64,000 nucleotides of DNA from NCBI GenBank assembly GCA_010093995.1, contig ML992504.1, positions 930,001-994,000 on the forward strand, read 5' to 3'. Below, in pieces: positions 128-19,770 of this stretch. A program made the position numbers and the translations under genes. The DNA comes from Elsinoe ampelina. Its lineage: Eukaryota. The notes under the pieces were generated by a model that was not told the DNA's origin, did no database searches, and saw nothing but the letters and a program-made list of their open reading frames with translations. How positions within the stretch are numbered: position 1 is the stretch's first letter; every line of letters begins with the position of its first letter.

Positions 128-3100
128 GAGGTATAATAATAATACTAGCTAAAGCCTTAGTATAATAAAGATATAAGTATTAAACTACTTTATCTTATAA
201 GCTTAAATATAAAAATATAAAGTAAAAGCAATAATAGATTTAGAAGCTAACTATAGCTATATTTCTATAATAATAGCTAGCTAGCTAAAATCTTATAAAT
301 AATAAAAAAAGCTACTTTACTTACTTACTATAGTAGATAGAACTTCTATAGGAAAAGATAGAAAAGTTACTTAAGAACTATAAAATATTATAATTAGAAT
401 TAATATATATATAGAAAAATAATTAATTAATATTATAGATATATAGTATAATATAATATTAAGTATAGACTAGCTTTAAGAATATAATCTAGATATAGAC
501 TAGATTAATAAAATACTTAAATTTTCTAAGTATAATTATAAGATATAAGAAGTATAATTAGCTTTATAGATACTAACTATAAGGATAGTATAGGTATAAC
601 TAATAGTTAGAGCTATTACTAGTATAAGTAATTAAATACTTTTACTAGAATATAAAGACTTTAAAGACTTATTTAAGGAAAGAGAAAGTATTATAGCTTT
701 ACTCTAATTTAAACTATAGAATTATAAAATACCTTTTAAGAAAGGTAAATCCCTAATATATTATTAAGGTCTTATATTATTATTAAAATAAAAAAAAGAA
801 TATTCTTAAGAACTATATTAATAAGTACTTACTTAAAGGATTTATATAACTATTAAAATTACTTATTATATATAAAATACTTTTTATACTTAAAAAAGAT
901 AAAATATTATAAATATATATTAATTACTAGAAACTTAATATACTTACTAAGAAGAATTACTATTTCTTACTAAGGATTAATAAACTTTAAAACTAACTAC
1001 TTAGAGCTAAATAATCTACTTTAATTAATATTAAAGATACTTATTATTAAGTATAAATAAAGAAAGATAAAAAGTAGAAAATAGCTTTTAAAATATAATA
1101 GAGTTTATATAAGTACTTTATTATACTCTTTAAGTTAACTAATATTTCTATAACCTTCTAAGAGTTAATTAATAATACTTTATAAAAATACTTTAATAAC
1201 TTTATCTTAGTATATTTAGATAATATTATTATCTTCTTAAAGATATATAATAAATATATAAGATATATTTATAAAGTACTATAGAAACTAAAAGAGAAAG
1301 ACTTACTAGTAAAACTCTTTAAGTATAAGTTTTATAAGTATAAGATATAATTTCTAAGCTATATTATATCTACTAATAGTATTAGATCTAATTTAAAAAA
1401 GATTAAATTAGTTAATAATTAGCTAGAACCTACTATAGTTAAAGAGGTTTAAGTACTACTAGGATTCTTTAACTACTACTATAAGTTTATTAAAAGGTTT
1501 TTTAAGGTAGTAATATTAATATTTGACTTTATAAAGAAAAAAACTAGCTTTATCTTTAATAAAAAATATAAATAAGCCTTTAAAGAGCTTTAGCATTAAC
1601 TAACTATAGTACTTATTTTAGTACTCTTTAACCTAGACTAATAAGCCTTACTAGAAATAGATACTTTAGACTTTATAATAGAAGTATATCTAGTATAGAA
1701 AGATATAGAAGAATAATACTACTTAATTATATATTACTTATAAAAAATAACTAGACCTAAACTTAACTATAATATATATAATAAAGAATTACTTATAATT
1801 ATAAAAGTATTCTATAAGTAGAAGATATATCTAAAAGAAATAACTTTACTAGTATAAGTCTATACTAACTATAAGAACCTTCTATATTAGATAATAACTA
1901 AAGTTCTTAATAGATAATAGGTTTAATAGTTAGAAACGCTTATAAGTTATAACTTTTAGATTTACTATATTAAAGAATTAAAAAATAGTAAAGTAGATAC
2001 TCTTAGCTACTAACTAAATTACTTAAAGAATATAATAATAATAAAGGCCTCTATACTAAAGTAGTAAGATAGTACTCTAGTCTATAAATACCTAAAGGTA
2101 GAGTAGTTATATAGCCTTACTTAGGAGCTTATATAAGAATAGAAATAGAAAGTTATTTAAATATACTATAATAACCTAATAGTAGAATATAGTAGAATTA
2201 ATAAGACTATTAAACTTATTATATAAAACTACCTATAGAAAGAACTTTAAAATAATATTAAGATATATATTATAGTATATAATATATACTATAAGTCTAA
2301 GTACTTATAATATAAGCTATATAGCTTACTATAACTCTTACTACTACTAGATAAACTATAGTAATTAGTTATAATAGACTTTATAGAACTACTACTACTA
2401 TTAGAAAAGCTTCTTATAAATATAAAATATAATAGTATTCTAGTTCTAGTAGATAGATTTATAAAGTATTACTACTTTATACTATATAAAATAATAATAA
2501 CTATTAAGGATATAGCCTTTACTTTCCTTTAAATAATTATTTTATAATATAAAGTACTATAAGACTTAATAACTAATAAGGATAAGCTATTTATATTATA
2601 ATTCTAGTAGTTATTTATAGATCTACTAAAAGTTAAATATAAGCTATTAACTTTCTTTTATCTATAAATAGATAAATAAACTAAATAAGTAAATTAAGTA
2701 CTAAAGTAGTACTTATACTACTACTTAAACTATAAGTAAGATTTATAAGTAATACTATTACTACTTATAGAGCTTACTATTAATAATAGAAAGTTAGTAA
2801 ATAGAGTTTTACTATTCTATATAAACTATAGAATATACTTAGATTTATACTATAATATACTTAGAATTAAACTAATATTTAAGAGTATAAATATACTAGT
2901 AGCTAATATTAAAAAGTTATATAACTAGCTATACTAAAATATAGTATTTATATTATAAAGAATATTAGATTTTACTAACTAGAAGAGAATTATAAGACTA
3001 ATTCTATAAGAGGAAAAGAAAGTTTATCTCCTTAGTAAAAATATTAAAATAAAATAACTAAGTAAGAAACTTAACTATACTAAACTAAGATTCTTTAAGA

Positions 3101-3151
3101 TCTTAGAGAAGAAAAATAAAAATATATATAAATTAGAACTACTTAGATATA

Positions 3152-3624
3152 TAGGGTGGTTTTTGGGTACCTAATGCAACCCAACTAGACCCTAGATTTA
3201 GCCTAACAGAGTTATATTACCCTGTAAAAATTTCGCTTCACTTTCGCGTTTCTCGTGATTTACCGCGTTAATCTCGGCTAAATCTAGGTAATATATATAT
3301 TATTAGAATCTACAAAAAAATGCGCACTGAATGGTATATAGCATGCTTACATAATATAAAACTCTAATTTTAGAAAGAAAGCTAACCTTTTTAAATACTT
3401 ATATAAAATCGAGCTTTTGGATTATGTAAGCATGCTATATACCATTCAGTGCGCATTTTTTTGTAAATTCTAATAATATATATATTACCTAGATTTAGCC
3501 GAGATTAACGCGGTAAATCACGAGAAACGCGAAAGTGAAGCGAAATTTTTATAGGGTAATATAACTCTATTAGGCTAAATCTAGGGTCTAGTTAGGTTGC
3601 ATTAGGTACCTAAAAACCACCCTA
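3152..3624. mobile_element. Non-autonomous hAT-like MITE / foldback element (473 bp, ~220-bp inverted arms)
   Basis: TAGGGTGGTTTTTGGGTACCTAATGCAAC... at 3152 is the reverse complement of ...GTTGCATTAGGTACCTAAAAACCACCCTA ending at 3624. Flanked by the 8-bp direct repeat TAGATATA (3144-3151, 3625-3632). Removing the element plus one TSD copy restores the integrase frame of element A. Confidence 0.9.
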
Positions 3625-3675
3625 TAGATATATAAGGATCTACTTAGTCTTTTATATATTACTACTAGAGAAAGT

Positions 3676-3873
3676 TATAAGGACTAATATAGTAAGTATA
3701 CTATACTAGCTTACTCTAGAGATACTATTCTCCGTAGAAGAATAAAACACTCCTCGCCTACAGAATAGATAGAGCAGAGATTAGTCTTACGATAATCGAG
3801 GGTACACTAGTATAACACCTGTTCTACTCCTATATACTTGTCTTTCTAGCTCTAATATTCTACCTTTATTATA
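3676..3873 (+). repeat. 5' LTR of element B
   Basis: TATAAGGACTAA...TTATA (RIPed TG..CA ends); aligns without gaps to 10772-10969, differing by C/T and G/A transitions. Confidence 0.95.
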
Positions 3874-3900: not shown

Positions 3901-6900
3901 ATAGAGCTATATAAACAAGATAGCACCCTGTGCTTAGCGCTAGCGAAACAACTAACTGCTGCTAGAGTAGTACTAGCATAGACAACTCTCTAATAGCTTA
4001 GCTATTAGCGAGACATTTACTAAATTAGCTATAACTCTAGAGATAACCCCTATTAAAGATCGCTAGGCTAGGGAAGAGCTAGTGCTAAGACTACACTACG
4101 CTAATATAGCTCCTATAGGAAGTATAGCTAACACGAGAAATAATGCTATATACAAAGCGCTTCTTACTTATATCGCTTAGCTTAAAAATACACTTAATAG
4201 TTGCTTCCTAGTTATAGCGCTAGTACTACGTAGTTGTTTTAACAATGTATAACCTAACGACATTCGCCTAACAAACCTGCAAATCGTAAGAGAGTATATA
4301 CTAAACTTATACTACTTCGAGGCCTTAGAGTCTACTATTATAGTAAGAGTTAAGGAATTTATATATATATATAATAACGTCTTTAAGATAGTACTAAATA
4401 TCTACTTTAAAGAAGTTACTTAGTGCTATATAGCTACTAGCTACTTAAAAGGTTAGCTTAGCTACAATTAGGACTTGTATACTAAGAGTATTAGCGTTAT
4501 ACTCTCGTAGAGCCTAATATAGTCCTAGCTTTAGGACTAAGCCTAGAGTCCCGAAAACTATAGTAATAGCTACGTAGTAAAGTTCTTTACGTCGCGCTAG
4601 TATAGAGAATAGTTAATTACTAATTTCTATATGTTCCTCGATAGTTACGAGTTCTATATTAAGATAGCGCCGCTCTCGGATAATGCCTGCTATATATAGC
4701 TTATTACCTATACTACGCTAGAGCTACGCTTAGAAGTACTCCGTTAGGGGAACCTACCCCTAATTAAGGCAGAACTTCTAGTATATCTATCCTATTTAGA
4801 GTAGAACCTACCGGGCTACTTTAACCCTATATAGGGGTAGTATAAGCGTAACGCTAGAGAGAAGACTAATACTTTTACTAAAAGGCCTTACTATAACAAA
4901 GACTATAAGGGCCAAAAGGACTAGTAGAGTAGCACTAACGCTACCTCTATAGCTCCTTAACCTAGCGCTACTTACCCTTATAACATCTATAAGAGCCTAG
5001 ACTATTAGGCGCTAAACTGTCTCTAGAAGAACTCTTTAAAATAGATAGTGTCCTTACGTTTGCTAATTCTAAGTAGCTCTAGCGTAATACGAGATATGTG
5101 TTAAATTTGCACTAATATTATAGTTAACCTACCTAAAGGCTCTATTAAAGGGGTAGCTCTAATAGATAGTAGTGCCGATAGTAACTTTATTAGCTAGTAT
5201 TTTGCTATATGCTATTATATCGCTGTCGACCCCCTAGTAGTATACTAAGTATATAGCTTAGACAAATACAAATTAACTATCTATAGATATACTAAGTTAG
5301 CCTTTACTATTAAGAATAGTAAAGAAACAACGTAAGTGTTACGCTAGCAGTTTAAAAGCGTTAATATAACTAGTTATAATCTTATATTAGGCCTACTATA
5401 GCTATTGTCCTATAACTCTAAGATTTAGTAGAGCGCTAGTATATAGAGGCATTATACTAGCGCTATATAGGTATTAATTCTAGATATACTCTTCTTCTCC
5501 TAGGAGCTAAATTAGTCTAACGCCTAGCTCTACCTAGTATATATATACTAGGACGAACCTAGTGCCCTAACTCTACTATACTAGCTTAACAACTACGTAG
5601 ATGTTTTTAATAAGAGCATAGTAATAGCGCTACTAGGTAACAATTTTACTTACTTTATTAATATTAAAGAGAGAGAATAGCTACTCTAGGGACCTATCTA
5701 CCTCCTTAGTAAAAAGGAGCTTTAGGTACTTCGAGAGTATATAGATAATAGCTTAGTAATAGGTTAACTCTAGTATAGTACTAGCTCTACGGGGTTTCCT
5801 ATCCTATTCGTTCCTAAGAAGAATAATTCGCTACGCCTATATATTAACTATTATAGGCTAAACAATGTTACTGTTAAGAACTATTACCCCTTACCTCTAA
5901 TTGCTAAGATACTTAATTACATCGAGGGCGTATACTTATTTAGCAAGCTAGACCTTATAGATGCCTACTATAGGGTATGTATCTAGCGTAGCAATAAATA
6001 GAAGATAGTATTCCGCTATTGCTATAGCTACTTTAAATATACCGTTATGCCTTTTAGCCTTACTAACGCTCTAGCTACGTTCTAGGCTTATATATATTAG
6101 TGCTTAAGTAGCTTAGTAGACTACTACTATATTATATACCTAGATAATATTCTAATCTACGCTAGCAACGAGTAAGAGTATTACTAGGCTATTAGGAGCG
6201 TACTAGACTACCTACGTAAAAATAGCCTCTATATAAAACTAAAGAAGTATAACTTCGAGGTAATATAGGTAGTATTTCTAGGCTATATTATTAGTAGTAA
6301 TAGCGTTATAATAGAGTAGCCCTAGGTATAAGCCGTCGCTAACTAGCCTACCTCTACTAGCCTTAAGGAGTTATAAACCTTTCTTAGATTTGCTAATTTC
6401 TACTATTAATTTATTAAGAGCTTCTTTTATATAGCGCTACTACTAACTATACTTATGTAAGAGTTAGTCTAAGGGAAGTAAGTAGGCCTATTTCTATAAA
6501 GTAATAACGTAGTATAGGCCTTTAATAGGCTTAAAGCTGCCTTTATATAAGTACCTATACTATACTACTTTTTATTAGGTAAGCCTCTCTAGCTCGAGAC
6601 TAACGCTTTAAATTTTATACTCTCTAGAGTAATCTTCTAGTAAAACGAAAGTAACACCCCTACGTAATACTAGTACTCTATAGCGTTCTAGTTCCGAAAG
6701 CTATAAGGTATAGAACTAAACTACACTACCTATAACAAAGAGCTTCTCGCTATTATAGAAGCGGCATAGCACTAGCGCTAGTACCTACTTAGCGCTACTA
6801 CTCCGATTAAAGTCCTCTTTAACTATAATAACCTTAGGTATTTCCTAACTACTAAGAAGCTTTTATAGCGCTAGGCCTACTACGCCGAGGTACTAGCGTA

Positions 6901-9049
6901 GTTTAATATTGTTATTTAGCACTATAGTAGGAAGACTAACCTAGCTAATAGCCTATTATATAGGCCTAACTACTATAAGTATAAAGAAGATACATAGGAA
7001 GAGTGCTATATATTAGTTCTCCTCTTAGAGTAAGTATTATAAATATAAAGCAAAGGAGTTATACCTATATCTATTATAGATAAGGAACCTAAGGCTAGTA
7101 GAGCCTAGGAAGATAGTAATAAAGCTAGTATAGCTTATATACCTTAAACTACTCCCTAACGTAACGCGCTTATATAATTCTAATATACCTCTAGAATAGC
7201 GCCTATAAGTCTACCTATTACCTTAGGAGCGCTATAGCTATACTAAGAAGAGTTAGAGCCTCTAGAGTAAGAAGAGTAGTGCCTAGAGAGCACTTACGTA
7301 AACCTTTCTCTAAGCCTAACTAGTAATATTAAATTAGGATAATATATATCTACTTTAGCATCTTAGAACATGCCGCTACTTGCCTAGGAAATAATAGAGA
7401 GCTAAGGGTATAAAGACGGTATAACGCCTACGTAACTCTAGAACACCTCTAGTAGAAAGCCTACTATAATTTTAAACTAGAGTTAGTAGATTATATACCT
7501 CTACGCTACGTAAGTACTAGCGGATAAGACTATATATACCTCTTCTACTCCTATGTCGCTTCGGGACCTTATCTATATAGTATAGTAAAGGGACACCTTT
7601 ACTTATAGCAAGAAATAGAAACTTCTAAAAGAGAGAACCTTAACTAGTAATAGTGCTACCTCTAAGTAGAGCCTATCTAGTAATAGCTTACTCTAGAACG
7701 GAGATAGGGTATATATCCTAGAAGAAACTACCTTAAGAGTAGAGCTTATATAGCACAATTATAATAACCCCTTAGAGAGTTACTTTAGCTATACTAAGAC
7801 CTACCTTAATATAAGGAGAAAGTACTAGTAGCTAGGTATATCTATTGCTATAAAAGTGTATATCGAGCGCTACGATAGCTACTAAAGGCATAAGGTAATA
7901 TAGTATAAGCCTTATAGCCTTCTATAACTCTTACTAATCCTACTTATACTCGAGGCCTTATAACACTAGTTGCTTAATTTTATTACTAGCTTACCCCTAG
8001 TAGAGCTCTAGCCTAGTATTATTATAGACGCGATTATCGTGTATATCTATTACTTATCTAAGTTTAGTATCTATACGCCGACGTTAACTAAGCTTAACGC
8101 TAGGGACTTTACTAATCTATTTAAAATAGATATTATAACGTTGTTCGGAACGCTAAAGATACTAGTCTTAGATAGAGAGTCTATCTTTATAAGCAAATTC
8201 TAGAGTGCGCTATACTAGCGCTAGAAGGCGTAATATAAGCTTAGTATTAGTTTCTATCTATAGATAGACAGCTAAACTAAAAGGCAAAACTAGACGCTAG
8301 AGTAGTACCTACGCTACTTTATTAACTATTACTAGACGGACTAGCCGTACTAGGTTAAGTAGGCGCAATTCGTGTATAATAATACGTATTAAGCGTTACT
8401 ATACACTACGCTAGTATAGTTCTTATTTATATAGGAGATATGCCTACTCAACAACATTAAGGCGCTAGCGCTACCTAGCTACGTACTAGCGTATAACTTA
8501 TCGGTTAATAACTAAGTGTAATCTATTACCGAAACGTATATAGAGCTTGCCCGACACCTACGTAAAGCATAGAAAGACTAAGCGCTAGCCTATAATAGAG
8601 GTTAATAAGTAAAAGTCTTCTATAATAGCGACGAGGTTATACTTAGCACTAAGAACCTTTATAGCGCTAGACCTAGCTATAAGCTATTAGCTAAGTATAT
8701 TAGCCTATTTATAATTGTATAACGAATTAGTACGTAGGTATATAAGCTACGCTTACTAGATAAAATAAAGCTAATCTATAACGTCTTTAATATTGCGCTA
8801 CTAGAGCTATATAGGCATAGTAAGAGCGTACGCCTACTACCCCTAGAGATAGAAGGGCAGGAAGAATATATTATTAAACATATCCTTAGCAAGAGCTATA
8901 CTAGCACTCTAAAGGCACTATACTACCTAGTAAAGTAGTAGGGTTACTCTATAGAAGAAAGTATATAGGAGCTAGTAAAAAACCTTATAAACGCTAAGAA
9001 ATTACTATACAAATATAAGGTAGCTTAGTATAAGTATAGCGCTAGCTAA
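3901..9049 (+). pseudogene. gag-pol of element B (RIP-inactivated)
   Basis: CX2CX4HX4C remnant ~4979-5020; ALIDS(G)ADSNF ~5156-5188; YLD(D)IL ~6137; LET(D)AS-like ~6593; integrase H.(H)(DD)PL(GG)(H)F ~7754; chromodomain EEYI.(E)HIL ~8861. Boundaries are approximate. Confidence 0.9.
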
Positions 9050-9241
9050 ATACTCTAGACACACTTAGAATTAACAAGTTAAAGGTATAAATTTTAAAGT
9101 AAAGAGCACCTAGGCGTAGCGCTAGGTTAGCTCGGAGTATTATTAGCTTATATAGGGAGAACACTAGCGTAGCGAAAACTATAGAATTATACCGAAGTAA
9201 AGAGGGTATAGCGTAGGCGTAGTGCCCTAGCTCTCTCTATC

Positions 9242-10112
9242 TTAACTATCTATATTATCTACCTTAGTCTTATCCTTATTATTCTCCTTAACACTATTAA
9301 TATACCTAGTTAGCGCCCTTATAGTATTATTAATTACCTATATAGTAGCGGCTTACTTATTCTTAGTAACTATCTATAAAGAAGTTAGTATAACTTAGGC
9401 GTTATAGAGGTATACTTCTAGACTTATATAACTAGCTAAAGCCTTAAGTATAAAGCTAGTATTACTAATTATACCTAGGCGTAGCGCCTTTACTAGCTGC
9501 TTAGTATTAACTTTAGGGGTAGAGGGCGTAGTAATAGTACTATTATAGCGTAAAGAAGTTACACTATTACTATTACTCTTATTAACTACCTTGCCCTTGC
9601 CCTTAGCATTAGACTTGCTCTATATACGCTTAGCGCTAGCCTTCTTACGTATATAGTTAGCGTAGGTAGTAATCTAGCGCTTTAGGAGAATAATGTTCTT
9701 CTTAGGAGTAGTAGCGTTATTACAGAGTAGTATATACATAGCGAAGTATTTATTCTAGAGCTTCTTAGTAGTAACTTAATTCTTAGAGTTAAGCTTAGTA
9801 GGCTACTAAGATTAGTATAGAGTAGGCATAGTATAGGCGTAGAGTATACCTAGTAGTAGTGTTTATTACTATAACTATAACAATTATAGCAAGTAGCCTT
9901 AGCCTTAGTAATCTAGTAGAGGGAATTCTTAATAGGGAGTGTGCTATCTTTAAGCTAGAGGTGCTTATTAATAGTAATAGCGTAGCGTAAGTATAGTATA
10001 GAGTACTAGTCCTAGTTAGTAAAATTGCTCTTATAAGGTCTATAAAAGGTTAGCGCTAGCGTAGCGTAAGTGCTACATATAATACTTACTCCTTAGAAAC
10101 TTTAGGGGCTAT
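9242..10112 (-). pseudogene. Spliced antisense accessory gene inside element B (3 coding exons, ~258 aa, Cys6/Zn-cluster-like N-terminus, basic middle, acidic tail), RIP-damaged
   Basis: Exons 10112-10090, 10039-9850 and 9805-9242 join in frame (777 nt). Introns are GTAAGT..GCTAAC..TAG and GTATAC..CTAAT..TAG. Start context is ACAACT-ATA-GCC (RIPed ATG). All internal stops are TAA/TAG, which RIP of CAA/CAG/TGG would explain. Confidence 0.7.
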
Positions 10113-10755
10113 AGTTGTTAAAGTATATAAGCGTATAGGAGGTAAGCTAGCGTAGAGCTAGAATAATAAAAGGAAAAAAAATTTTTACTATATAGGTACT
10201 ATACTAGATTAGTAAACAAACAACTAAATAGATAAGCCCGATAGCTAGATCTATAGTAGTATAGGCTTAGTATATACGCTAAGCCTCCCCTACTAGCCCT
10301 TAGGCTAGTAAGACTTAGTCTATACTATATAGCACCTAAAATAGATTACTAGTATAGTGTTAGACCTACGTAAGTATAGAGCTAGTATTAAGTAGAATAC
10401 TTACGCGAAGGAAGTATTATAAAGGAGAAAAGAAGGAGAGAAGAAGAAGAGAAAAATATATATCTAGCTCTAAGCTAAGACTAATCCGGAGAATAATAGG
10501 TAGTAGTATATAATAATAAGTAGATTCTTATATATAAAGATAACAACATAAGAGCGCTATATTCCATATGTAAAGATTATACTATTATTACTACATCTAG
10601 TATATAAAGAATAGTATAGGCTACTATAGGTGCGCTATATATGTAAAGAGTATACTACGCCTAAGAGGCACTAGCGAGACACTCTTTTCTAGTTTTCTCC
10701 TATACTAGGTTTTCTAGGTTTTATCGAGGCTTATAGGCGTAAGAGCGCGCCCCTC

Positions 10756-10770
10756 GAAGGGGAAGAATAA
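10756..10770 (+). promoter_or_regulatory. Polypurine tract of element B
   Basis: GAAGGGGAAGAATAA directly upstream of the 3' LTR. Confidence 0.8.
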
Positions 10771-10771
10771 T

Positions 10772-10969
10772 TATAAGGACTAACGTAGTAAGTACGCTAT
10801 ACTAGCTTACTCCGGAGATACTATTCTCCGTAGAAGAATAAAACACTTCTTGCCTATAGAATAGATAGAGTAGAGATTAGTCTTACAACAATTGAGAGTA
10901 TACTAGTATAACACCTATTCTACTTCTATACACTTGTCTTCCTAGCTCTAATATTCTACCTTCGTTATA
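10772..10969 (+). repeat. 3' LTR of element B
   Basis: Direct repeat of 3676-3873, followed by TSD AAAGT. Confidence 0.95.
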
Positions 10970-12621
10970 AAAGTACTATAGAATACTATACCTAGACTTA
11001 TTAAGTTAGATAAGGAGATATAAGAGCTATAGTATAAAATTAAAAAGGTTTTATATTATAAATTTATAAAAGAAAAATACTATTATCTTATCTACTAGAA
11101 AGAATATTAGTATAGTAAAGTAATATAAGAACTAAAGAAGTACTTTACCTTATAAGTAATTCTAAACTATTAAACTAAAAACCTATCTTAGGCTAATAAA
11201 CTTTTTAGGCTAAACTATTCTATTAAAAGAAAAAGAAAGTAACTATATAAATCTCTTTACTAACTAATATCTATACTTAGAAGAGTAGTTCTTAAGTCTA
11301 TAGCTTAATTTATAAAATCTAAAGATAACTATATAGCTAGAGATAAGCTAATATAGACTTTAGTAGCTAGATAATCTTCTACTACTTCTAACTTGTTATT
11401 ATTTTTTATCTTAGTTACTAAATATTCTATCTTCTTCCTAGCTTACTTCTTATGCAATAGGCCCAGTTCACCCGGAGTGTCCTAGCCGCCGAACCCGAGG
11501 CAATGGTGTCCAATCATTTACCGCCGCCCTGTGACGCGACTTCTCTCTTCACTTTCAACCACGCCGCCCTCTGCGAATGTATGCCAATGCCTTGAATAAC
11601 ATCAACAGCTTTAGAGGGACAATATTACCCGGCATCCACAAACGTCGAGCTTCAAGCACGTTAGTTGTTCAGTTCCGGCAAGGTAGTCTTGCAGAAGCTT
11701 CGGCTTGTGCAGAAACAGGTACGAAGTGTGTCTACAACGGTCTGCTATCTGGCTGGCGTCGGTCAATGCAATCGAAAATAGCTCTGTCAAGCTGCATTTG
11801 ACACGGTTGGTGCCATGCAACTCTGGGAGCTTCGTTATCGTTTGACATCTGAATTCGCCACCCTCTATCTGTGCCGTCAAGCTCAGGCAACGCCGCCTAC
11901 ATATTGCGGCACAGCCCAGGTGTCCTGCGCTCCAATCGCCGTCCATCGACAGGTTGGGGGCACGGTTTCGCTTTCGGTTACATCAAGGTGGGAGGTGTGA
12001 CAACAGCGGGAAGTCGCATGGGTGGCTGGCCTGGCGCATCTACCGGACTCACTGAAGGCGACTGCTGTGGAATGGTAATTTAGAGCCAAAGGTGAGTCCA
12101 ACCCAAATTGAGGCATCGCCTGGTAGATCATTGGGGGCAATCAGACTTGGACGCTGCGGCGCACGATCGCTCGATCGTTGTCGACTTAGGGATGGCCTTG
12201 ACGATTTGGCTATATAAGCACAAGATGAGCTCCCGCAGAAGATACTCCATTATAGTATCTTTCACTTCAAAGAGAAGAAAATCGAAAATGCAAGTCTGCA
12301 GGACTATTCTTTAATATTTTGCATACTTACCTTTGTAGGTGTGGAACTCGGACAACAATCACGGTCGTTATTGATAGTGAGGGTCGGAGGCGTACCAGGA
12401 CGGAAGTCGTTCACGTCGACTGTCAAAGCACCTCATGCCCAACTTCGAACCTATATCGCCCGACGAACAGGACAAATCCAGCTTGCCCCGACAGTCAGGG
12501 AAACTACTATGACACGACAAAATACAAAGAGCGCAATGTTTGGAAGTGTTAGAGGAGACATCTTGTCAGGCTGGTCGCACACTGCTGCTGCCACCACCAC
12601 CACCACCGAAGGATTGATGAT

Positions 12622-13446
12622 CTAGAGGCATGAGCTTGCCAAAGTCGTTCGGTCGGTATTCAACCAAGTCTTCAACTTCTTCAATGCAATCTCATCATGA
12701 GACCTCTCCGAAGTAGCAAAGTCTTCATCGTCGACCCATCCTGGTGTCCCGGCAGTGATCAGCATGGCGCCAAATGGTTTACAAGAACCGAAATCGATTA
12801 TGATCGCCCTGCCGTGTTTGTCGATCATGATGTTCGTCGGGTTGAGGTCGTTGTGCGCTAGGCCCAGCGTATGCAGATGCTCGATTCCCGACTCAATGTC
12901 CGCAATCCATTTCACCTTGTCATGATTGTCCTCATTGGCTTTGATAGCGTCTTCCAGTGTAGCCTCATGCCGCTCTAGCAGCAAGCCGACCACGTAGCCT
13001 CTTCTGACGGAACAACCATGGTATCGGGCAATATTGGGATGAGGCCTCTTCCTGAGAAACTCCATCGTCTCTGCTTCCTCTCGTAGCAAGGTTGGGACGG
13101 TTACATCGTCTTCGGAAGGGGAGAAGAGCGCGAGCTTTGGTCGTTTAAGATAGCAGTCCCGATATTTTGATCTAAGAGCTATCGTAAATGAAGACTGTGC
13201 TTTGGGGTAGATGCATTCATCGTTTACTGGCCGCAGATGGGTGGATAATTCCGATTCCTGGAGCTCGGCCTTACGGACAGGTGCTTCGGCATAGTAGACA
13301 CGATCTTGTTCATCGATGAAAGAGAAGGTGGATCGCAGAAAAGATTGGTCCTCGACCTTGAAAACTTCACAGAGCGTGTTGAGAGTTGCGAAGGTGACAG
13401 TGTGCCGCAGTTGTCGTTGCGAGATGGATAGGGTATCTGCAGACAT
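12622..13446 (-). CDS. Fungal protein kinase-like protein (lineage-specific Ser/Thr kinase family)
   Basis: Intact intronless ORF with YLKRP (VAIK-equivalent Lys), EAETME (alphaC Glu), HPNIARYHG, HNDLNPTNIM catalytic loop, IIDFG and GTPGW. No clear Gly-rich loop and a short C-lobe. Confidence 0.85.
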   Translation of the reverse strand: MSADTLSISQRQLRHTVTFATLNTLCEVFKVEDQSFLRSTFSFIDEQDRVYYAEAPVRKAELQESELSTHLRPVNDECIYPKAQSSFTIALRSKYRDCYLKRPKLALFSPSEDDVTVPTLLREEAETMEFLRKRPHPNIARYHGCSVRRGYVVGLLLERHEATLEDAIKANEDNHDKVKWIADIESGIEHLHTLGLAHNDLNPTNIMIDKHGRAIIIDFGSCKPFGAMLITAGTPGWVDDEDFATSERSHDEIALKKLKTWLNTDRTTLASSCL

Positions 13447-13760
13447 GACGTGCGTAGGAAAGTGCGACACCGCAGGAAATAAAAGGTTTTAGAAAGTAAT
13501 TCATGTTGAACGACTTCACCGCCTAGTCCTGCCGTCTCTTTCGTCTTCGGGGGCGATGAACCTCGGCCAGGACCTGCCGCAAATACAGACAGTCGAATTC
13601 GCTTCAAACGAGCCACCCCGGGCTTGGCGGTAGTTTGTGCCGACTTCGCGTTACTACAGTCTAGTAGCCAGAAGTCTAGATACAGTACCGTGAAATCAAA
13701 GCTGAATTGAAGGTGTATAGTACTAGTTACTAGAGCTACTGTTTATTAAAATAATCTATT

Positions 13761-13983
13761 TAATGCGAGATAGATACGAACTAGATTTAGTTAGGATCTA
13801 GTTTAGATTAGTTATGTAATCTTAGCATTATAGCCTAGGCTTCTAGCCGCTCTGCCCTTAATATTACGCGTGCTTTATATACTAGTTTTCTTCTTCTTCT
13901 TCTAAGTCTTAATATCTTAATAAATAGATATAATTAACCTCTTATCTTACTAGTTATAATTACTATATTAAGACTTTATAACA
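13761..13983 (+). repeat. 5' LTR of element C
   Basis: TAATGCGAGATAGATACGAAC...TATAACA; matches 19771-19976 at an offset of 6010. The 3' end is inferred from the CA terminus. Confidence 0.85.
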
Positions 13984-16900
13984 ACTATAACTAAGCAATA
14001 GAGCTATTAAACTATCTAGTTATTCTACTACTTATATAACTACTAATAACTACTACTTATAAAGAATTAAAGAATTAAAGAAGAAGCTATTATAACTATA
14101 GTTCCTATATACACTATAATAGATTCTTACTACTACTATATAGGTTAATACTATAAACCCTAAAGATATAAGAAAAAGGTAATAAGTTAAGTTATAGATA
14201 ACTCTTAAAGGAAGTAGGCTACTAGCTAAAAATTTTAATATTCTCTTTATTATATATTAACGTTTTATACTATTTTATTTATAACTAACTATACTAAGTA
14301 TAGCTTAATCTAACTATAGTAATAAAGAGCGCTACTAAAGTAAGCTACCTTAACCTATCTCTAACAATAATAATACCTCTATCTACTCTCTCTACTATAA
14401 TCTTTTTACCCTCTCTAACGCTATACTCCTTAAGAAGCTATAGGAAGAGTATAGTATATAGGCACTAAGAGACATATTTAACTATATTAAGTTCTTCTAT
14501 AATAAGTAGACTATATAGGTAAAAGACACTTATACTAACGCTTTCTACTATTACTACAAGTTAGATACTACTTAGGCCTAGCTTAGTAACCTCTAATCCG
14601 AACTAGATATATCTTAGTCCTATACTAATAGTGTTACTACCTAAGCTACTTACTACCTAGACAAAATCTAAGAGCTTAAGGCTAAGGTAAACTAACTAAG
14701 AAACGAGATAGAGTATAGTATACTAGCCCTTTCTATACGTAGCTCTACCTTATTAGAAAAGATACTAGACTCTACTATCTTTAGTATAGGTACACCGGAG
14801 TAGTTTAAGGTCTTTAAGCACTAGATAAGGAATAAGATATATACTAATATAGATTATTTCTCTACGAGGGACACCTAGTTTACCTATCTATACTTACGCC
14901 TCTCTAGAGAAGTCTATACCCTTATTATAGACTTAGCTAGTAATAATATTATTAGCGTTAAAGAGGTCCTTACTCTCCTAGCCTAGCGCTTCGAGAATCC
15001 TAACTATAGAGCTACTATATGTACTTAGTTTACTAACCTTTTCTAGTATAATAGCATATTTAACTTCTTTATTAGCGAGTTTAATAAGTACGCTCTTTGC
15101 GCTAAGATCGCTAAAGAGGAGTAGCTATACTAGATCTATTAGAAGATATCTAATAAGCTACGTAATACTCTAGTTAACTATAACACTAATAACTTTACTA
15201 CCTTTATTACTAAGGCCTACGCTACTAACTATAATATCTAATAGAATAACCTTATTACTAAGCACACTTAGGCTTTACGTTCTATACTAGCTATAAGCTA
15301 CACTACTACTATACCTACTTATATACCTTATTTTACCTCTATGCCTATAGCTCTACCTACCTTCTACTCTATTACTAGAGGTGCTCTATAGCCTTTCTAT
15401 CTAGCTCTAGTACTTACCTATTACACATGTAGTAAGCCTAGATATATCTCTACTAAGTATATAGCTAGCGCCTTAGAGAAGGCTACTTACGCTACTATAT
15501 ACTCTATATGTATTAGCGCTATAGAGGAGATATAGTAGCTTTAGAATTGCTTAGCTAAATTAAGTAACTAGGTTAATACTAGTTCGGCCTATAAACTAGA
15601 TTTAGTTTAGCCTTAGTTTAACCCCGAAATAGACTATAAGTCTACTAGCTACTCTAGCTAGAGAAATAAGTAGCTAGAGAACAAGTTCTATTCTCTAGTA
15701 GAATAAGAGTAATTCGAGATAGATCTAGAGGTATATAGTTACTAAATAGTGTTATTAGCTACTATATCCCCGCTATTATAACTCCTATTACTATTTATAA
15801 CTCTTATAACTACTCTTATACTATTATACTTTAAGCCTTTATCGACACTAGTGCGCTTATTAGCGCCGTAGTTAATTATAACGTTCTTAATAAGCTAAAG
15901 AGCTTTAGCTACCCCGTAGTACTAGCTAGTTCTATTTAGCTTTAAGCCTATAATAGTGTTCTAATAGAGTAAGTTATATATAGTATTCCCCTTACTACTA
16001 CTGTTTCTAGTAAGCTAAATAACCTTACTACCTTTTATATTATAGATATTAGCTAATTTAACATTATTCTTAGCCTTAGCTAGCTTAAGGCTAATAGGGC
16101 TACTATTAACTACAAGCACGGCCGAGTTATATATAAAGAAGAGTTTTCGCTAACAGTTATTAAGTAGAAGCTACTATAGCTAATTAAAAGGCTAGAATCT
16201 AGATCTAAGCCTAGCTTAGATCTAGGAATCTAGCTCGGCGAAGCTGCCGCTCTAGTTTAGAACTAGTTTAGTTCTAGTCTAACTCGTAAACTAAGTTCTA
16301 GCTTAGCTACTAAGTTAGGACGAACTAGACTATATCGGCTACTAGCTCTTAGGTTAAACTTTAAGCTAAATTAGGGAGAGTTTAAGCTAATCTCCTATAG
16401 TACTTAGTTAATATATAAGTTCTTCTACTTACTTACCTATATAAGTAACACTAAATAAGAAGAACTAACTATTACCTTTATCGGCGCTATTGCTTTTATA
16501 TTAGTGGCCTAATACTAAGAGAATAAGGTGTTTATAATCTTAGTAAAGAACATTAAGGATTACTACTAGATAGTCTCTAAGCTAGAGCTAGACTCTATAG
16601 TAGTTCTTCTAGAGAAGCTATATAAATTTACTAATATCTTCTCTAAAGAGTAGTCTAATATACTTTCTCTACACTAGCTAGATTTTAACAATTAAATTAT
16701 ACTTAAGAATAGAGCTAAACTACTACGTACTAAACTCCTACGCTGCCTTTTACTAGAAGAACTTAATATAGTAGAATAATTTATCTAAGAATATCTTAAT
16801 AAAGGCTTTATTATACCGAGTTCTACTAGCTATTCCTTACCTATTCTCTTTATTTATAAGCTAGATAGAGAACTCTATCTCTACGTTAACTACTATAGCC

Positions 16901-19770
16901 TTAATAAGGTAACTAAGTAAGATATCTATCCTCTACCTCTTATTAAAGAAACACTTACGCGCGTAAGTAAGGCTAAATAGTTTAGTAAGATTAATATCTA
17001 TTAAGCCTTCTACTACCTCTATAACTCTGTCGATAGTAAAGATCTTACTATATTCTCTATACGTATAGGTAACTTTAAGTAGCTAGTAATGCTATTTAGC
17101 CTTACTAATGCCCCTATAGTCTAGTAGAGGTTTATAAATTATAACTTCGTCGATATACTAGAGTACTTTATATCGATCTACCTAGATAATATTCTTATCT
17201 ATATAAATAGCTCTTACTAAGAGCATACTAAGTATATTAAGCTAGTACTCTAAAGGCTCTACGAATTAGGCCTAAATACTAATATTAAGAAGAGCAAGTT
17301 CTATCTAATAGAGGTAAAGTACCTTAGTATTATCGTTAGCCGAGGTAGAGTTAAGATAGATCCTAAGAAGGTAGAAGCTATATAAGCGTAGAAATAGCTA
17401 GCTCCTAGTAATACTACTTAGGTAAGGAGCTTTATTAGCTTCTATAGCTACTATTATCGCTTTATTAAGGGATTTAGCACTATTACTAAGCCGCTAAATA
17501 ATCTACTTAAGAAGGACGCTATACTATAGAACGACAATTATACTGCTACGTTTAATTGTATAAAGTATACTATTATAAGCGCGCCTATCCTTATATACTT
17601 CAATTACTTAAAATAGATAGTCCTTAAGATAGACACCTCTAACACTACTACTGCTAGAATTCTATTATAATATAACAAGTCTAACGTTCTTTAGCCTATT
17701 ACCTTTTTTAGTAAATCTATAAATAAAGCTAAATATAACTATGCTATCTATAACAAGGAACTACTAGCTATTATCTAAGCCTTCGAGGAGTAGGCCTCTA
17801 AGCTTATAAGTACTTAATCTAATAAGGCTATTTACGTTCTTATTAACTACTAATCCTTAATACACTTTATAAAGACTTAGAAGCTATTACGCTACTAAGC
17901 GCGCTAGGCTCTCTACCTTACACAATTTAACTTTAAGATTATATATAGGTCTAGCGCTACTAATAGTAAGGCCGACGTACTTATAAGAAGGAATAGAGAC
18001 GTACTACGCTTAAAGGAAGACTCTAATCTATGCTAGACACTATTACTATATAAGGTGCTAGATTAGTATATTATTAACAAACTAAATCTAAGTCGTATCT
18101 AAACTAGATTACTAATCTAAGCTAAACTAAGATCTAGTTCGGTATCTAGTTCGCGAACTAGTTCGCTACCTATTTTAGCTTACGAGCTAGGTATCTACGT
18201 AGCACCTATAATAGCTATAGAAGAGCCTTTACCTCTTTTCGAAGAAGTAGCTAAAGCTAACTTATAGGACGCTAAGTGCAAAACAGTTCGAGGTATCTAC
18301 TATATAATAGAGGCCTTTCTAAAGAGAAAATAGCTACTATTAACTAATGTTACTATTAATAAAGGGATGTTATAGGTCGCTAGCTAACTATTTGTACTAT
18401 AGTTAATAGCTATAAAGGTTATCTAAGAGGTCTATATATTAAAGAACTATATATATACTAGAGCCACTAAAATAGCTACTATAATTAAGACTACCTTTTT
18501 TATTCTAGGCTATAATAACTTTATTAAGAGGTTCGTTACTAATTGCTATAACTATAAACGCTTAAAGACTTACTATAGCTTACTAGCTAGCCTCCTATCG
18601 CCTTTGCCTATTCTAGTAAGACTATAGCAATATATTACTATAGACTTTATTACTAGTCTACCTCTAGTAGATAGCTATAATATAGTACTATATGTTATTA
18701 ATTACTTATCTAAGGAATAATACTTAATCTCTTACTTCTCTAGAGAAGAAGGCACCTTAGTATTTAAGACTACTAAGTTATTATTCTTCTATATTTAGAG
18801 ACTATATAGCCTACTAGATAGTATTACCTCCGACTACGGCCCTTAGTTCGTTAGCGACGTATAGAAAAGGCTCTACTAAATCCTAAAGATTACTACTAAA
18901 CTATCTACTATAGGGCACCTATAAATAGATAGCTAATTAGAGGTTATAAATTATAAGTTTAAGTAGGTTATTCGTTTATACGCTATACGTTTTAGCAATT
19001 AGACCCTTATTCTACTAGTAGTAGAGTTCTCTACTAATACTAGCCTATTAGAAAGTATAAAGCTATTACTATTTAAGGTTACTAGGGAATATAAGCCTAG
19101 GCTAAGCTTCTAGCTCTCTTCTAACACACTATTAACAAGAGCTAAGCTAAATAAGGCCGACATTTGCGCCCTTACTAAGTAACTAGAAGAAGCGCTAGCT
19201 ATTACTAAAGCTAACCTTGCTATTGCCTAATTATAAATAGTAGAGCAAGCTAATAGATACTACTAGCTAATAGAGTTCGAGGTAGGCAATTTAGTTTAGC
19301 TATTAATAAAGAACCTCTAGTTACTAGGCAATTCGAAGCTACTACTAAAGTATATTAGTCCTTATAAGATCCTTGAAAAACAGTTACTATTAGTATATAA
19401 GCTTAATCTACTAGCTACTCTATAAAGAATTTACCTTGTGTTCTATACTAACCTCCTTACTAAGTACCTAAATAACTCTCTACTAGGCTAAGCCTTTAAG
19501 GAACTACCTCTAGTAGAGGTTAATAGTAAGGAAGAGTATAAGGTAGACAATGTAATTAATATATATATACTATAAGGGAAGCTAGTTACTTATATAAGCT
19601 AGAAGAGCTATCTAGAGAATCTTATCTAGTAGCTAATTAATAACCTTAAAGGAGTAGCTAATGTGCTACGTAACTATCTAGACTCTTATATAAATAAGCT
19701 AAGGCCGAAATAGATTAATAAATAATGTATAATAGCGTTTAAGGGCAAACGCGCTTAAGAGAGAAGGTAG

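What the first reader, a model, noticed from the sequence alone, without database searches (positions are those of the whole stretch)
9242..10465. Chromovirus carries a complete, spliced antisense gene encoding a Cys6 (Zn-cluster-like) protein with its own promoter
Seen in the sequence: gag/pol does not explain the 1.7 kb between pol and the 3' LTR of element B. On the minus strand there is TATATA followed by a CT-rich box (~10463-10420), two intron-like segments in the leader (~10404-10336, GTAAGT..CTAAC..TAG; ~10277-10204), a fungal-type start ACAACT-ATA-GCC at 10112, and two introns with branch sites (10089-10040, 9849-9806). Removing those two introns gives one 777-nt frame. Exon 2 reads TAC-TTA-CGC-TAC ... 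CTC-TAC ... TGC-TAT-AAT-TGT ... CAC-TAC. Inference: reverting TpA to TpG (RIP) gives C-L-R-C-x~20-C-x8-C-x2-C-x7-C, followed by a basic KGKGK region and an acidic tail, which resembles a Zn2Cys6-like nucleic-acid-binding protein. Established: antisense introns survive reverse transcription of the sense genomic RNA. This looks like an element-encoded accessory regulator (transactivator, anti-silencing or copy-number control) that standard gag-pol models do not cover.
Basis: partly seen in the sequence, partly recalled or inferred. Interest (0 to 1): 0.85.

Follow-up and report, generated by a model that had tools for sequence, protein, structure and literature searches.

The report
Dead retrotransposon's antisense Cys6 gene relic
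A mutation-riddled fungal jumping gene still holds the remains of an extra gene on the opposite strand, and intact relatives of that gene encode a small zinc-cluster-like protein that has hardly been studied.

Summary
Element B is a RIP-killed Ty3/gypsy chromovirus: LTRs 3676-3873 and 10772-10969, target duplication AAAGT, pol ending near 9031. About 1.7 kb lies between pol and the polypurine tract and has no Pfam match.

It has 14 internal TAA/TAG stops and starts with ATA.

The idea behind it holds up in relatives:
- The spacer is present in many genomic copies.
- Two related elements (L001, L002) have the same layout and fill the spacer with an antisense gene.
- Intact products exist (P0029, 346 aa; 67 relatives). 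Six Cys open with CLRCA, which RIP would turn into the window's YLRYA.
- Other chromoviruses carry antisense genes with Zn2Cys6 spacing, a basic stretch, a coiled coil and an acidic tail (383 relatives, no Pfam). Three carry canonical introns, and dN/dS is 0.15-0.25.
- Predicted folds resemble Gal4-type domains, but no Pfam threshold is met.

No significant sequence similarity links the window itself to these families. The link rests on position, layout and motif.

Antisense genes in fungal Boty-like elements (brtn) are already published.

Verdict: a real relic of an accessory gene. Zn2Cys6-like is plausible; membership is unproven.

The parts
3676..3873 (+). 5' LTR of element B (198 bp; RIPed TA...TA ends), preceded by target-site duplication AAAGT at 3671-3675
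5102..9031 (+). pol of element B (protease, RT, RNase H, integrase, SH3_Tf2-1, chromodomain-like tail); 8.9% of its codons are stops after RIP
9032..10755 (.). about 1.7-kb region between pol and the polypurine tract; no Pfam match in six frames; present in many genomic copies
It has the highest pol-trained codon score of the spacer and includes the KGKGK basic stretch and an Asp/Asn/Lys-rich tail
9806..9849 (-). candidate intron 2 (44 nt, GTATAC..CTAAT..TAG). It is supported only by the change of the codon-like frame at this place
9856..9993 (-). Cys-rich motif, read as Y-L-R-Y-A..Y..C-Y-N-C..Y. YLRYA is the RIP equivalent of the CLRCA that opens the six-Cys domain of the P0029 family. The TGC at 9891-9889 reads TAC in other copies
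10040..10089 (-). candidate intron 1 (50 nt, GTAAGT..GCTAAC..TAG); the only strict intron signature in the window's RIPed DNA
10421..10456 (-). 36-nt pyrimidine run (a polypurine run on the + strand); the only run of 20 nt or more in the first 21 kb. It may be a CT box of an antisense promoter or an internal polypurine tract; undecided
10756..10771 (+). polypurine tract next to the 3' LTR
10772..10969 (+). 3' LTR of element B, followed by AAAGT at 10970-10974
   Evidence: (loose end at 10970)

Best explanation
The stretch 9242-10465 is the RIP-destroyed remains of an accessory gene that this chromovirus family carries on the strand opposite gag-pol, between pol and the 3' LTR.

Shown in relatives: the gene encodes a protein of about 170-350 residues. 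It has a six-Cys domain near the N-terminus, a basic Lys/Gly stretch, a long helix and often an acidic tail. It is under purifying selection. In some elements it holds canonical spliceosomal introns. Such introns can persist because the genomic RNA that is reverse-transcribed is the opposite strand (established principle).

Inferred: the protein binds two zinc ions in a Zn2Cys6-like cluster and pairs through its long helix. It acts in the nucleus as an element-encoded DNA-binding regulator of the element's own transcription, or of host silencing.

In this window the copy is dead, as is its pol, so nothing is made from it now.
For: 1. Layout. The spacer of about 1.7 kb is real and has no Pfam match. 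DNA contigs of the same organism (run X1; 2197 pieces at 80% likeness or more) cover it as evenly as pol, and the differences are almost all transitions.

2. Closest relatives. The best pol match is P0001 (E 6.5e-130). Its genomic relatives L001 and L002 have the same build: LTRs of about 180 bp, elements of about 7.07 kb, spacers of about 1.7 kb. Their spacer holds a long minus-strand frame.

3. Intact products.
- P0029 (346 aa), P0030 and P0031 (51% identical to P0029) were found.
- A profile search found 67 proteins at E<=1e-3.
- Named members come from Helotiales fungi.
- The six Cys read C-L-R-C-A..C..K-C-x-D-C-x-K-K-G-K-x-C.
- Natural RIPed members (P0091, P0058) read YLRYA, as the window does at 9993.

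4. Motif statistics are given.

5. RIP polymorphism. Other copies read TAC at the window's TGC (9890) and TAG at its CAG (9499).

6. A wider class.
- Profiles hit 13 of 79 chromovirus loci. All 24 matched stretches are on the minus strand, just downstream of pol. Nine of these loci built one of the profiles.
- Further cases were seen by eye: L007, L013, L033, L063, L066, L071.
- In L045, L061 and L071 the ORF lies between pol and the 3' LTR.
- A profile of 9 such ORFs finds 383 proteins at E<=1e-3. None of the 120 listed has a Pfam family or a name.

7. Introns. L032 and L048 have GTAAGT..GCTAAC/GCTGAC..YAG one codon before the first Cys. L071 has an intron between the two halves of the motif.

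8. Selection. dN/dS is 0.15 for L069/L045 (182 codons) and 0.25 for L032/L048 exon 2 (96 codons).

9. Fold.
- AlphaFold2 gives the Cys domain of P0029 pLDDT 90-95, with short helices at each CxxC. The L037 ORF shows the same plus an 80-residue helix.
- Foldseek with the L037 model found 27 matches at E<=10. Of the 22 rows printed, 19 are Pho7, Leu3, Ppr1, Hap1, Gal4, Put3 or the 1cld entry. The best is E 0.17 with rmsd 2.0-2.9 A over 36 columns.
- Atlas structural rows: 6 of 10 are Zn(2)-C6 clusters, with TM under 0.5.
- hhalign of the two families puts all six Cys in register (P 0.0011, probability 20%).

10. Pairing. Two copies of L037 residues 28-150 scored 0.43 against a best control of 0.01 (3 controls).
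- Among microbes the mark was reached by 21 of 30 proteins solved as pairs of one chain and by 0 of 23 solved as single chains.
- Among eukaryotes the figures are 17 of 29 and 0 of 30.
- The runs share at least 87% of contacts and the partner's pLDDT is at least 75.
- Coiled coils resemble solved ones, so the pass may come from memory.

11. Codon score. Trained on the element's own pol, it is +3 to +6.6 per 60 codons for the minus frame 9838-9250, against 4-13 in pol. Internal stops are 5.4% against 8.9% in pol.
Against: - No method gave a significant similarity between the window's minus frames and the intact families. Tried: an HMM of the P0029 family; a transition-blind 4-class profile; profile scoring that allows RIP ancestry; blastp, which scored no better than reversed-sequence controls; blastn and tblastx of the spacer against the 79 loci.
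- The Cys spacing in the window (x2, about x21, x8, x2, x7) differs from both intact families.
- Both halves have His (CAC) at +7. RIP cannot make CAC from TGC, so the choice of ligands is open.
- The frame has 14 internal stops and no ATG.
- The codon score is only slightly above the best non-coding frames, which reach +5.1.
- The window's pol is about equally far (about 30% identity after RIP) from many loci, so placing it in the P0001 clade is weak.
- Zn_clus never reaches Pfam's cut-off.
Confidence: 0.75

Rival explanations
1. The spacer is non-coding element sequence, such as a long 3' untranslated or regulatory region. The Cys/Tyr pattern, intron-like strings and codon-like bias arise by chance in TA-rich RIPed DNA.
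For: - A loose six-position Tyr/Cys pattern arises in 46% of simulated spacers.
- Stop density barely separates coding from non-coding frames after RIP: 8.9% in pol against 9.6-13.8% in the other frames.
- Strict intron-like strings are expected 0.25 times per spacer strand.
- No significant similarity to any protein family was found.
Against: - Elements of the same build fill the same place with a conserved antisense gene.
- YLRYA together with an intact CxxC occurred in 1 of 300 simulations.
- The position, length and order of parts (Cys motif, KGKGK stretch, tail) match the intact genes.
- The highest codon score of the spacer lies in the predicted frame.
Confidence: 0.15
2. The coding strand is the sense strand. 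A further plus-strand ORF downstream of pol would encode a Leu-rich, membrane-like (env-like) protein.
For:
- Its codon score is mildly positive, 0 to +4.3.
Against: - In the relatives the intact ORFs are on the minus strand, while the plus frames are broken.
- All 24 profile matches in 13 loci are on the minus strand.
- The minus frame scores higher.
- Leu-rich reading is the expected mirror image of a Lys-rich antisense frame.
Confidence: 0.05
3. A host gene fragment or another mobile element was inserted once into this copy (one-off capture or nested insertion).
For: - Element B itself is nested in another RIPed element.
- The region holds odd small repeats: 3628-3665 matches 10535-10500 in inverted orientation.
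Against: - Contigs of the organism's DNA cover the whole spacer at the same depth as pol. Apart from a 1-nt insertion and one skip at 10576-10647, in one contig each, no breaks were listed.
- Related elements have a spacer of the same size.
Confidence: 0.03

Closest known systems
[quoted passage not shown] 2011, Virology 417:248). The paper is not held here. I know it only through citing passages in PMC7264820, PMC8365987, PMC4227169 and PMC5987419.
   Same: [quoted passage not shown] The hosts are Helotiales, like the named members of the P0029 family.
   Different: Whether BRTN is Cys-rich, spliced or homologous to P0029 or the L037-type proteins could not be checked, because neither its sequence nor the paper was available. 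The window's element is a different, RIP-killed family.
Antisense additional ORFs between pol and the 3' LTR of plant Ty3/gypsy elements: Grande1, RIRE2, Retand, PvRetro13 (review PMC7264820, passages read; PMC4408406, passages read)
   Same: Same place and orientation. They are present in most copies of a family and conserved like other element proteins. Their function is unknown.
   Different: The plant ORFs named in those passages carry PMD, Tr28 or coiled-coil parts and sit in non-chromovirus Tat/Retand lineages. Here the product is a six-Cys, Zn2Cys6-like protein in fungal chromoviruses, and some of the genes hold introns.
Fungal Zn(2)-Cys(6) binuclear cluster transcription factors (Gal4, Ppr1, Put3, Hap1, Leu3, Pho7; Pfam PF00172)
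   Same: - The relatives show CX2CX6C-X8-12-CX2CX6-7C spacing.
- Two short helices begin at the CxxC pairs, followed by a long helix.
- The predicted fold lists almost only these proteins as Foldseek matches.
- An acidic tail recalls activation regions (that comparison is recalled, not tested).
   Different: - No member reaches Pfam's score: the best is 14.6 bits against a cut-off of 21.
- The P0029 family has a longer first loop (x11), and the window an even longer one.
- The basic K-K-x-K run follows the second CxxC, not the first.
- The proteins are only 170-350 residues long and lack the fungal_trans middle domain.
- They are encoded inside retrotransposons.
HBZ of HTLV-1 (recalled, not looked up here): an antisense, spliced gene for a bZIP regulator transcribed from the 3' end of a retrovirus
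   Same: It is an antisense gene at the 3' end of a retroelement. It can be spliced and encodes a small dimeric nucleic-acid-binding regulator.
   Different: It has a different fold (bZIP), a different host kingdom and a promoter in the 3' LTR. No homology is implied.
DUF3716 (PF12511), a Cys-rich fungal domain found in accessory proteins of a Zymoseptoria DNA transposon (PMC8232023, passages read)
   Same: It gives weak hits in 4 of 38 P0029-family members (best E 0.024). One Atlas row is a DUF3716 cluster. It is also tied to transposons.
   Different: All hits are below the cut-off, and it belongs to a different transposon class.

Membership tests
Ty3/gypsy chromovirus (Metaviridae) | Two LTRs with a target-site duplication and a polypurine tract | tested here: met
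   LTRs 3676-3873 and 10772-10969 are about 90% identical. The duplication is AAAGT on both sides. The polypurine tract is at 10756-10771.
Ty3/gypsy chromovirus (Metaviridae) | pol order RT, RNase H, integrase | tested here: met
   RVT_1 2e-14, RT_RNaseH_2 6.3e-14, RT_RNaseH 1.2e-13 and SH3_Tf2-1 1.7e-08, in that order. Integrase_H2C2 is only at E 0.031, below the cut-off.
Ty3/gypsy chromovirus (Metaviridae) | Chromodomain at the C-terminus of integrase | tested here: inconclusive
   Pfam Chromo was not detected in the RIPed copy. By eye the tail reads YYLVK**GYS..E, like the YLVKWKGY of P0003-P0005. Relatives P0002-P0008 carry PF00385.
Antisense additional ORF between pol and the 3' LTR (aORF-3R; plant elements, Boty brtn) | Lies between pol and the 3' LTR on the opposite strand | tested here: met
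   Window model 10112-9242, between pol's end (9031) and the polypurine tract (10756). The strand was inferred from relatives and codon score.
Antisense additional ORF between pol and the 3' LTR (aORF-3R; plant elements, Boty brtn) | Present in most copies of the element family | tested here: met
   Contigs of DNA run X1 cover all 30 bins of 8000-11000, with the spacer at a depth like pol's.
Antisense additional ORF between pol and the 3' LTR (aORF-3R; plant elements, Boty brtn) | Sequence homology to BRTN | not testable with these tools
   No BRTN sequence was at hand and the paper is not held.
P0029 family (antisense six-Cys protein of Helotiales chromoviruses) | Significant match to the family profile | tested here: not met
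   No hit of the window's frames to the HMM. The RIP-tolerant profiles gave nothing above other frames. blastp scored no better than the reversed controls.
P0029 family (antisense six-Cys protein of Helotiales chromoviruses) | C-L-R-C-A opening motif followed by C, CxxC and C | tested here: inconclusive
   The window reads YLRYA (the RIP equivalent, as in natural RIPed members P0091 and P0058) and then an intact CYNC. The composite occurred in 1 of 300 simulations, but the loop lengths differ.
Fungal Zn(2)-Cys(6) binuclear cluster (PF00172) | Pfam score at or above the gathering cut-off (21 bits) | tested here: not met
   - Window frames: no hit.
- P0029 family: Zn_clus is not among the 25 of 38 families listed for the 38 members.
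- L037-type ORFs: 3 of 9 hit, all below the cut-off (14.6, 13.5 and 10.6 bits).
Fungal Zn(2)-Cys(6) binuclear cluster (PF00172) | Spacing CX2CX6CX5-12CX2CX6-8C | tested here: inconclusive
   - Met in L032, L037, L048, L058, L060 and L071.
- Not met in the P0029 family, whose first loop is x11.
- In the window it is met only if His at +7 is taken as the third ligand of each half.
Fungal Zn(2)-Cys(6) binuclear cluster (PF00172) | Fold: two short helices starting at the CxxC pairs around two metal ions | tested here: inconclusive
   - Predicted helices sit at both CxxC pairs.
- The Foldseek list is almost wholly Zn2Cys6 domains, but the best E is 0.17.
- Metals are not modelled.
- This was tested on relatives, not on the window.
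Fungal Zn(2)-Cys(6) binuclear cluster (PF00172) | Binds two Zn ions and CGG-type DNA sites | not testable with these tools
   An exploratory count of CGG pairs in three LTRs gave mixed results against a weak control.

The most novel reading that the evidence does not exclude
A large family that is neither named nor matched by any Pfam model may be an old and regular part of many ascomycete chromoviruses. Its members are retrotransposon-encoded, antisense and sometimes intron-bearing proteins, built like miniature Gal4-type factors: a Zn2Cys6-like cluster, a pairing helix and an acidic tail. On this reading the protein works as the element's own transcription factor on its LTR or on host genes. 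That would be a fungal counterpart of retroviral antisense regulators, and the window holds a RIP-killed member with an unusually long first loop or Cys2His-type halves.
Probability: 0.4. Interest if true: 0.8.

Novelty: new variant of a known kind. Interest (0 to 1): 0.6.

Why it matters
Extra genes of LTR retrotransposons are poorly understood. The reviews read here say the function of the antisense ones is unknown.

This case ties one class to a recognisable DNA-binding-like build. It also shows that the class is common: 67 and 383 database relatives, and 13 of 79 sampled chromovirus loci by profile.

That gives a testable idea, namely that the element encodes its own transcription regulator. 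It also supplies intact natural proteins to test it with.

There are practical points as well:
- These ORFs lack any Pfam model.
- They are easily mis-annotated. One is filed under a bacterial bin.
- They would be missed by gag-pol-only transposon annotation.

Tried and rejected
- **Whole genome:** not held. Earlier-findings look-ups returned nothing.
- **RNA:** no RNA holder was listed. Nothing from the three runs guessed to be RNA (X3, X4, X6) was laid on 8000-11000. This says nothing about expression.
- **Spacer against the 79 loci:** blastn and tblastx gave no hit.
- **Direct homology of the window's frames to the intact families:**
  - the HMM gave nothing;
  - the transition-blind 4-class profile ranked the spacer below unrelated frames;
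  - RIP-ancestry-weighted profile scoring with four profiles put the spacer no higher than second, below an unrelated frame; one top hit was the low-complexity polypurine run;
  - blastp scored no better than the reversed controls.
- **Continuation of element A after 10970:** I looked for a less RIPed copy of the spacer. The region holds a host kinase-like gene instead.
- **Ranking loci by likeness to the window's pol:** all lie near 30% identity after RIP, so no clade could be assigned.
- **Sequence searches of the PDB:** A4 gave 0 hits. A5 gave only weak rows, mostly coiled coils, with Hap1 at E 1.7 and AlcR at E 4.7 among them.
- **CGG-pair counts in three LTRs:** enriched in L061, marginal in L045, absent in L071, and measured only against mononucleotide shuffles. 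No conclusion.
- **Rows dropped:**
  - the exon-1 row, because I gave the wrong frame for L032;
  - 3 of 7 rows, because my start coordinates were not ATG. The other 4 showed only 10-12-nt pyrimidine runs upstream, so there is no support for a conserved CT box.
- **Papers:**
  - the Zhao et al. 2011 paper is not held;
  - searches for a Zn2Cys6-like antisense gene in fungal retrotransposons found none in the held library;
  - supplements of PMC8365987 that draw the extra ORFs of Botrytis elements are PDFs and were not seen.
Full report
**What is in the window**

The first 20 kb are AT-rich, RIP-type DNA with GC 0.18-0.36. Normal GC (about 0.5) follows from 20 kb on.

Element B is an LTR retrotransposon.
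- Its LTRs are at 3676-3873 and 10772-10969 and are about 90% identical.
- It is flanked by a perfect 5-bp duplication, AAAGT.
- A polypurine tract lies at 10756-10771.
- A loose end in other copies' contigs at 10970 confirms the LTR end.
- Read with X at stops, the plus frame 3902-9031 gives RVT_1, two RNase H models and SH3_Tf2-1. Integrase_H2C2 is only sub-threshold.
- The tail reads like a chromodomain by eye.
- 8.9% of pol codons are stops, so this copy is dead.

Between pol's end and the polypurine tract lie about 1.7 kb. None of the six frames there has a Pfam match at E<=1.

**The observation**

Joining 10112-10090, 10039-9850 and 9805-9242 gives 777 nt.

The frame is not open. It has 14 internal TAA/TAG stops plus the terminal stop, and it starts with ATA.

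After RIP, stop density hardly separates coding from non-coding frames: 8.9% in pol against 9.6-13.8% elsewhere. The stops therefore neither support nor sink the model.

A codon log-odds score trained on the element's own RIPed pol gives +3 to +6.6 per 60 codons for the minus frame 9838-9250, and +3.4 to +4.9 for the exon-2 frame at 10260-10020. pol itself scores 4-13. The best other spacer frames reach +5.1. This is weak support, and it agrees with a frame change near 9850-9800.

Turning Tyr into Cys at will is not evidence. A loose six-position Tyr/Cys pattern appears in 46% of 300 simulated spacers and 28 times in the window's RIPed DNA.

**Is the spacer part of the family?**

No genome is held. 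One DNA run of the same organism holds the stretch. Of its contigs, 2197 pieces at 80% likeness or more cover 8000-11000 in all 30 bins, with the spacer at a depth like pol's. The differences are almost all transitions: 229 of 233 places.

So the spacer belongs to the family, and the one-off capture rival falls.

Table 3 of that call printed 40 of the 233 places, and two of them are telling.
- At 9890 other copies read TAC where this copy keeps TGC, the first Cys of CYNC.
- At 9499 others read TAG where this copy keeps CAG.

The four Tyr codons he converted were not among the rows shown.

**Relatives**

The window's pol finds un-RIPed fungal polyproteins. The best is P0001 at E 6.5e-130. A scan of metagenome contigs with an alignment of five of them gave 79 loci.

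L001 (81% identical to P0001) and L002 (69%) have the window's build: LTRs of about 180 bp, elements of about 7.07 kb, and about 1.7 kb between pol and the 3' LTR. That spacer is filled by a long minus-strand frame with few stops.

Searching with that frame found intact proteins: P0029 (346 aa), P0030 (355 aa) and P0031 (273 aa, 51% identical to P0029). A profile search of 1.84 billion representatives found 67 proteins at E<=1e-3, of which 29 were at 1e-10 or better.

Named cluster members are hypothetical proteins of Cadophora, Leptodophora, Chlorociboria, Coleophoma and Rhynchosporium. One is filed under a Deltaproteobacteria bin on a 6875-bp contig.

The conserved core is C-L-R-C-A-G-E-x3-F-P-D-L-x-C-x10-K-C-x-D-C-x-K-K-G-K-x-C-x-x-V-S. 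Natural RIPed members (P0091, P0058) read Y-L-R-Y-A at its start, exactly as the window does at 9993-9979.

In the window's RIPed DNA, [CY]L[RK][CY]A occurs once and an intact CxxC four times. Their combination at suitable spacing arose in 1 of 300 simulated spacers, and the fuller pattern in 0 of 300.

**A wider class**

A pattern scan and a look at the longest minus-strand ORFs downstream of pol showed more antisense ORFs of 130-235 aa.
- L032, L037, L048, L058, L060 and L069 have CX2CX6C-X8-12-CX2CX6-7C.
- This is followed by a Lys/Gly stretch (for example KGKGKAK), a long helix and an acidic tail.
- L036, L045, L049 and L061 show parts of this build.
- L007, L013, L033 and L063 show longer-loop variants.

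Three profiles hit 13 of 79 loci, and all 24 matched stretches are on the minus strand downstream of pol. Nine of these loci built one profile and two seeded another; L055 and L061 are independent.

By my count, 44 loci have at least 600 bp of sequence after pol.

Where both LTRs are present (L045, L061, L071), the ORF lies inside the element.

A profile of nine ORFs found 383 proteins at E<=1e-3. None of the 120 listed has a Pfam family or a name.

dN/dS is 0.15 for L069/L045 over 182 codons and 0.25 for L032/L048 exon 2 over 96 codons. These stretches do not overlap pol.

**Introns**

- In L032 and L048 a canonical intron (GTAAGT, GCTAAC or GCTGAC, then CAG or TAG) joins a long N-terminal exon in frame to the Cys exon. 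It sits one codon before the first Cys.
- In L071 an intron separates the two halves of the motif. L066 has the same place with a mutated ATAAGT.
- The P0029-type gene is uninterrupted.

So spliced antisense genes do exist in this class, at varying positions.

In the window, 10089-10040 is the only strict GTAAGT..RCTAAY..YAG string on either strand of the three RIPed elements. Simulation expects 0.25 per spacer strand.

The 44-nt segment 9849-9806 is supported only by the frame change.

The two leader 'introns' and the promoter could not be tested.

The 36-nt pyrimidine run 10456-10421 is the only run of 20 nt or more in the first 21 kb. On the plus strand it is equally a polypurine tract. The four relatives with verified starts have only 10-12-nt runs upstream.

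**What the protein looks like**

No Pfam family reaches its cut-off.
- For the 38 P0029-family members, Zn_clus is not among the 25 of 38 families listed. DUF3716 appears in 4 of 38, best E 0.024.
- For the nine L037-type ORFs, Zn_clus appears in 3, at 14.6, 13.5 and 10.6 bits against a cut-off of 21.

hhalign of the two families aligns all six Cys with a 5-residue gap in the first loop. P is 0.0011 and probability 20%, which is weak.

AlphaFold2 models give the Cys domain of P0029 pLDDT 90-95, with short helices at each CxxC and long helices after. The L037 ORF has helices at 34-39 and 53-58 and then one helix at 68-148.

Foldseek with the L037 model against the PDB found 27 matches at E<=10 and none at 0.001.
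- Of the 22 rows printed, 19 are Pho7, Leu3, Ppr1, Hap1, Gal4, Put3 or the 1cld entry.
- Two more are yeast kinetochore complexes.
- The best is E 0.17, with rmsd 2.0-2.9 A over 36 columns.
- That these are all Zn2Cys6 domains is partly my recall and partly their titles.

Two copies of L037 residues 28-150 scored 0.43 against a best control of 0.01 (3 controls).
- Among microbes the mark was reached by 21 of 30 proteins solved as pairs of one chain and by 0 of 23 solved as single chains.
- Among eukaryotes the figures are 17 of 29 and 0 of 30.
- The runs share at least 87% of contacts, and the partner's pLDDT is at least 75.
- The contacts run along residues 66-109 and look antiparallel.
- Coiled coils resemble solved ones, so this may come from memory.

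**What does not fit**

No method found significant similarity between the window's frames and either family.

The window's loop lengths differ from both families.

Both halves of its motif end N-K-H, with His (CAC) at +7. RIP cannot derive CAC from TGC.

After RIP the window's pol is about 30% identical to many loci, so its clade is uncertain.

**Mechanism**

Shown in relatives:
- an antisense, selected and sometimes spliced gene lies inside the element;
- its product has six conserved Cys and a long helix.

Inferred:
- a two-zinc cluster;
- pairing through the helix;
- nuclear DNA binding;
- regulation of the element's own transcription or of host silencing.

Introns survive because reverse transcription copies the sense RNA (established principle).

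For the window itself the reading rests on place, size, order of parts, the YLRYA/CxxC motif and the RIP polymorphisms. I give it 0.75.

**Known work**

Antisense extra ORFs between pol and the 3' LTR are reviewed for plants. That review also names Boty of Botrytis and Sclerotinia (PMC7264820, passages read). The brtn paper (Zhao et al. 2011) is cited in PMC8365987, PMC4227169 and PMC5987419 (passages read), but it is not held. I therefore could not learn whether BRTN is this protein.

Searches of the held library found no paper describing a Zn2Cys6-like antisense gene in fungal retrotransposons. Subscription journals are mostly not held, and the PDF supplements of PMC8365987 were not seen.

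**Verdict**

The gene class is real and the window holds a dead member. 'Zn2Cys6-like' is a fair description of the relatives, not a proven membership.

Noticed in passing
window 1-3675: Element B is nested in an even more RIPed gypsy-type element. That element has GC 0.18-0.20, and its pol pieces at 2306-2357 and 2636-2733 are 71-81% identical to B's at 7899-7950 and 8232-8329. The insertion is marked by the AAAGT duplication.
   Followed up: partly
window 3144-3276 and 3500-3632: A 133-bp inverted repeat, 95% identical, with arms 223 bp apart, lies just upstream of element B. A 38-bp piece next to it (3628-3665) matches 10535-10500 inside B's spacer in inverted orientation (84%). Its origin is unexplained.
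   Followed up: no
window 13761-19974: This is a second RIPed gypsy-type element, with 204-bp LTRs that are 91% identical and 6010 bp apart. Its pol matches B's at 71-80% in two short stretches. By position it has no room for a 1.7-kb spacer after pol, so the genome appears to hold chromoviruses with and without the extra region.
   Followed up: partly
window about 12700-13450, minus strand: An open, normal-GC frame with kinase-like strings (HNDLNPTNIMID, DFGSC) sits between the two retrotransposons. It looks like an ordinary host gene marooned in RIPed DNA.
   Followed up: no
window 9961-9959 and 9861-9859, minus strand: Both halves of the Cys-rich motif end N-K-H, with His exactly 7 residues after the second Cys/Tyr of each CxxC. 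RIP cannot make CAC from TGC. The ancestral domain may therefore have used Cys2His in each half.
   Followed up: partly
window 10421-10456: A 36-nt polypurine run on the plus strand lies about 315 bp upstream of the true polypurine tract. It is the only homopurine or homopyrimidine run of 20 nt or more in the first 21 kb.
   Followed up: partly
P0030: An antisense-gene product of a fungal retrotransposon is filed in a public database as a hypothetical protein of a Deltaproteobacteria metagenome bin, on a 6875-bp contig. It is probably a mis-binned fungal element.
   Followed up: no
L066 about 5179: At the intron site shared with L071, this copy has ATAAGT instead of GTAAGT. It is a decayed copy of an intron-bearing antisense gene.
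   Followed up: no
This may be chance.
   Followed up: no
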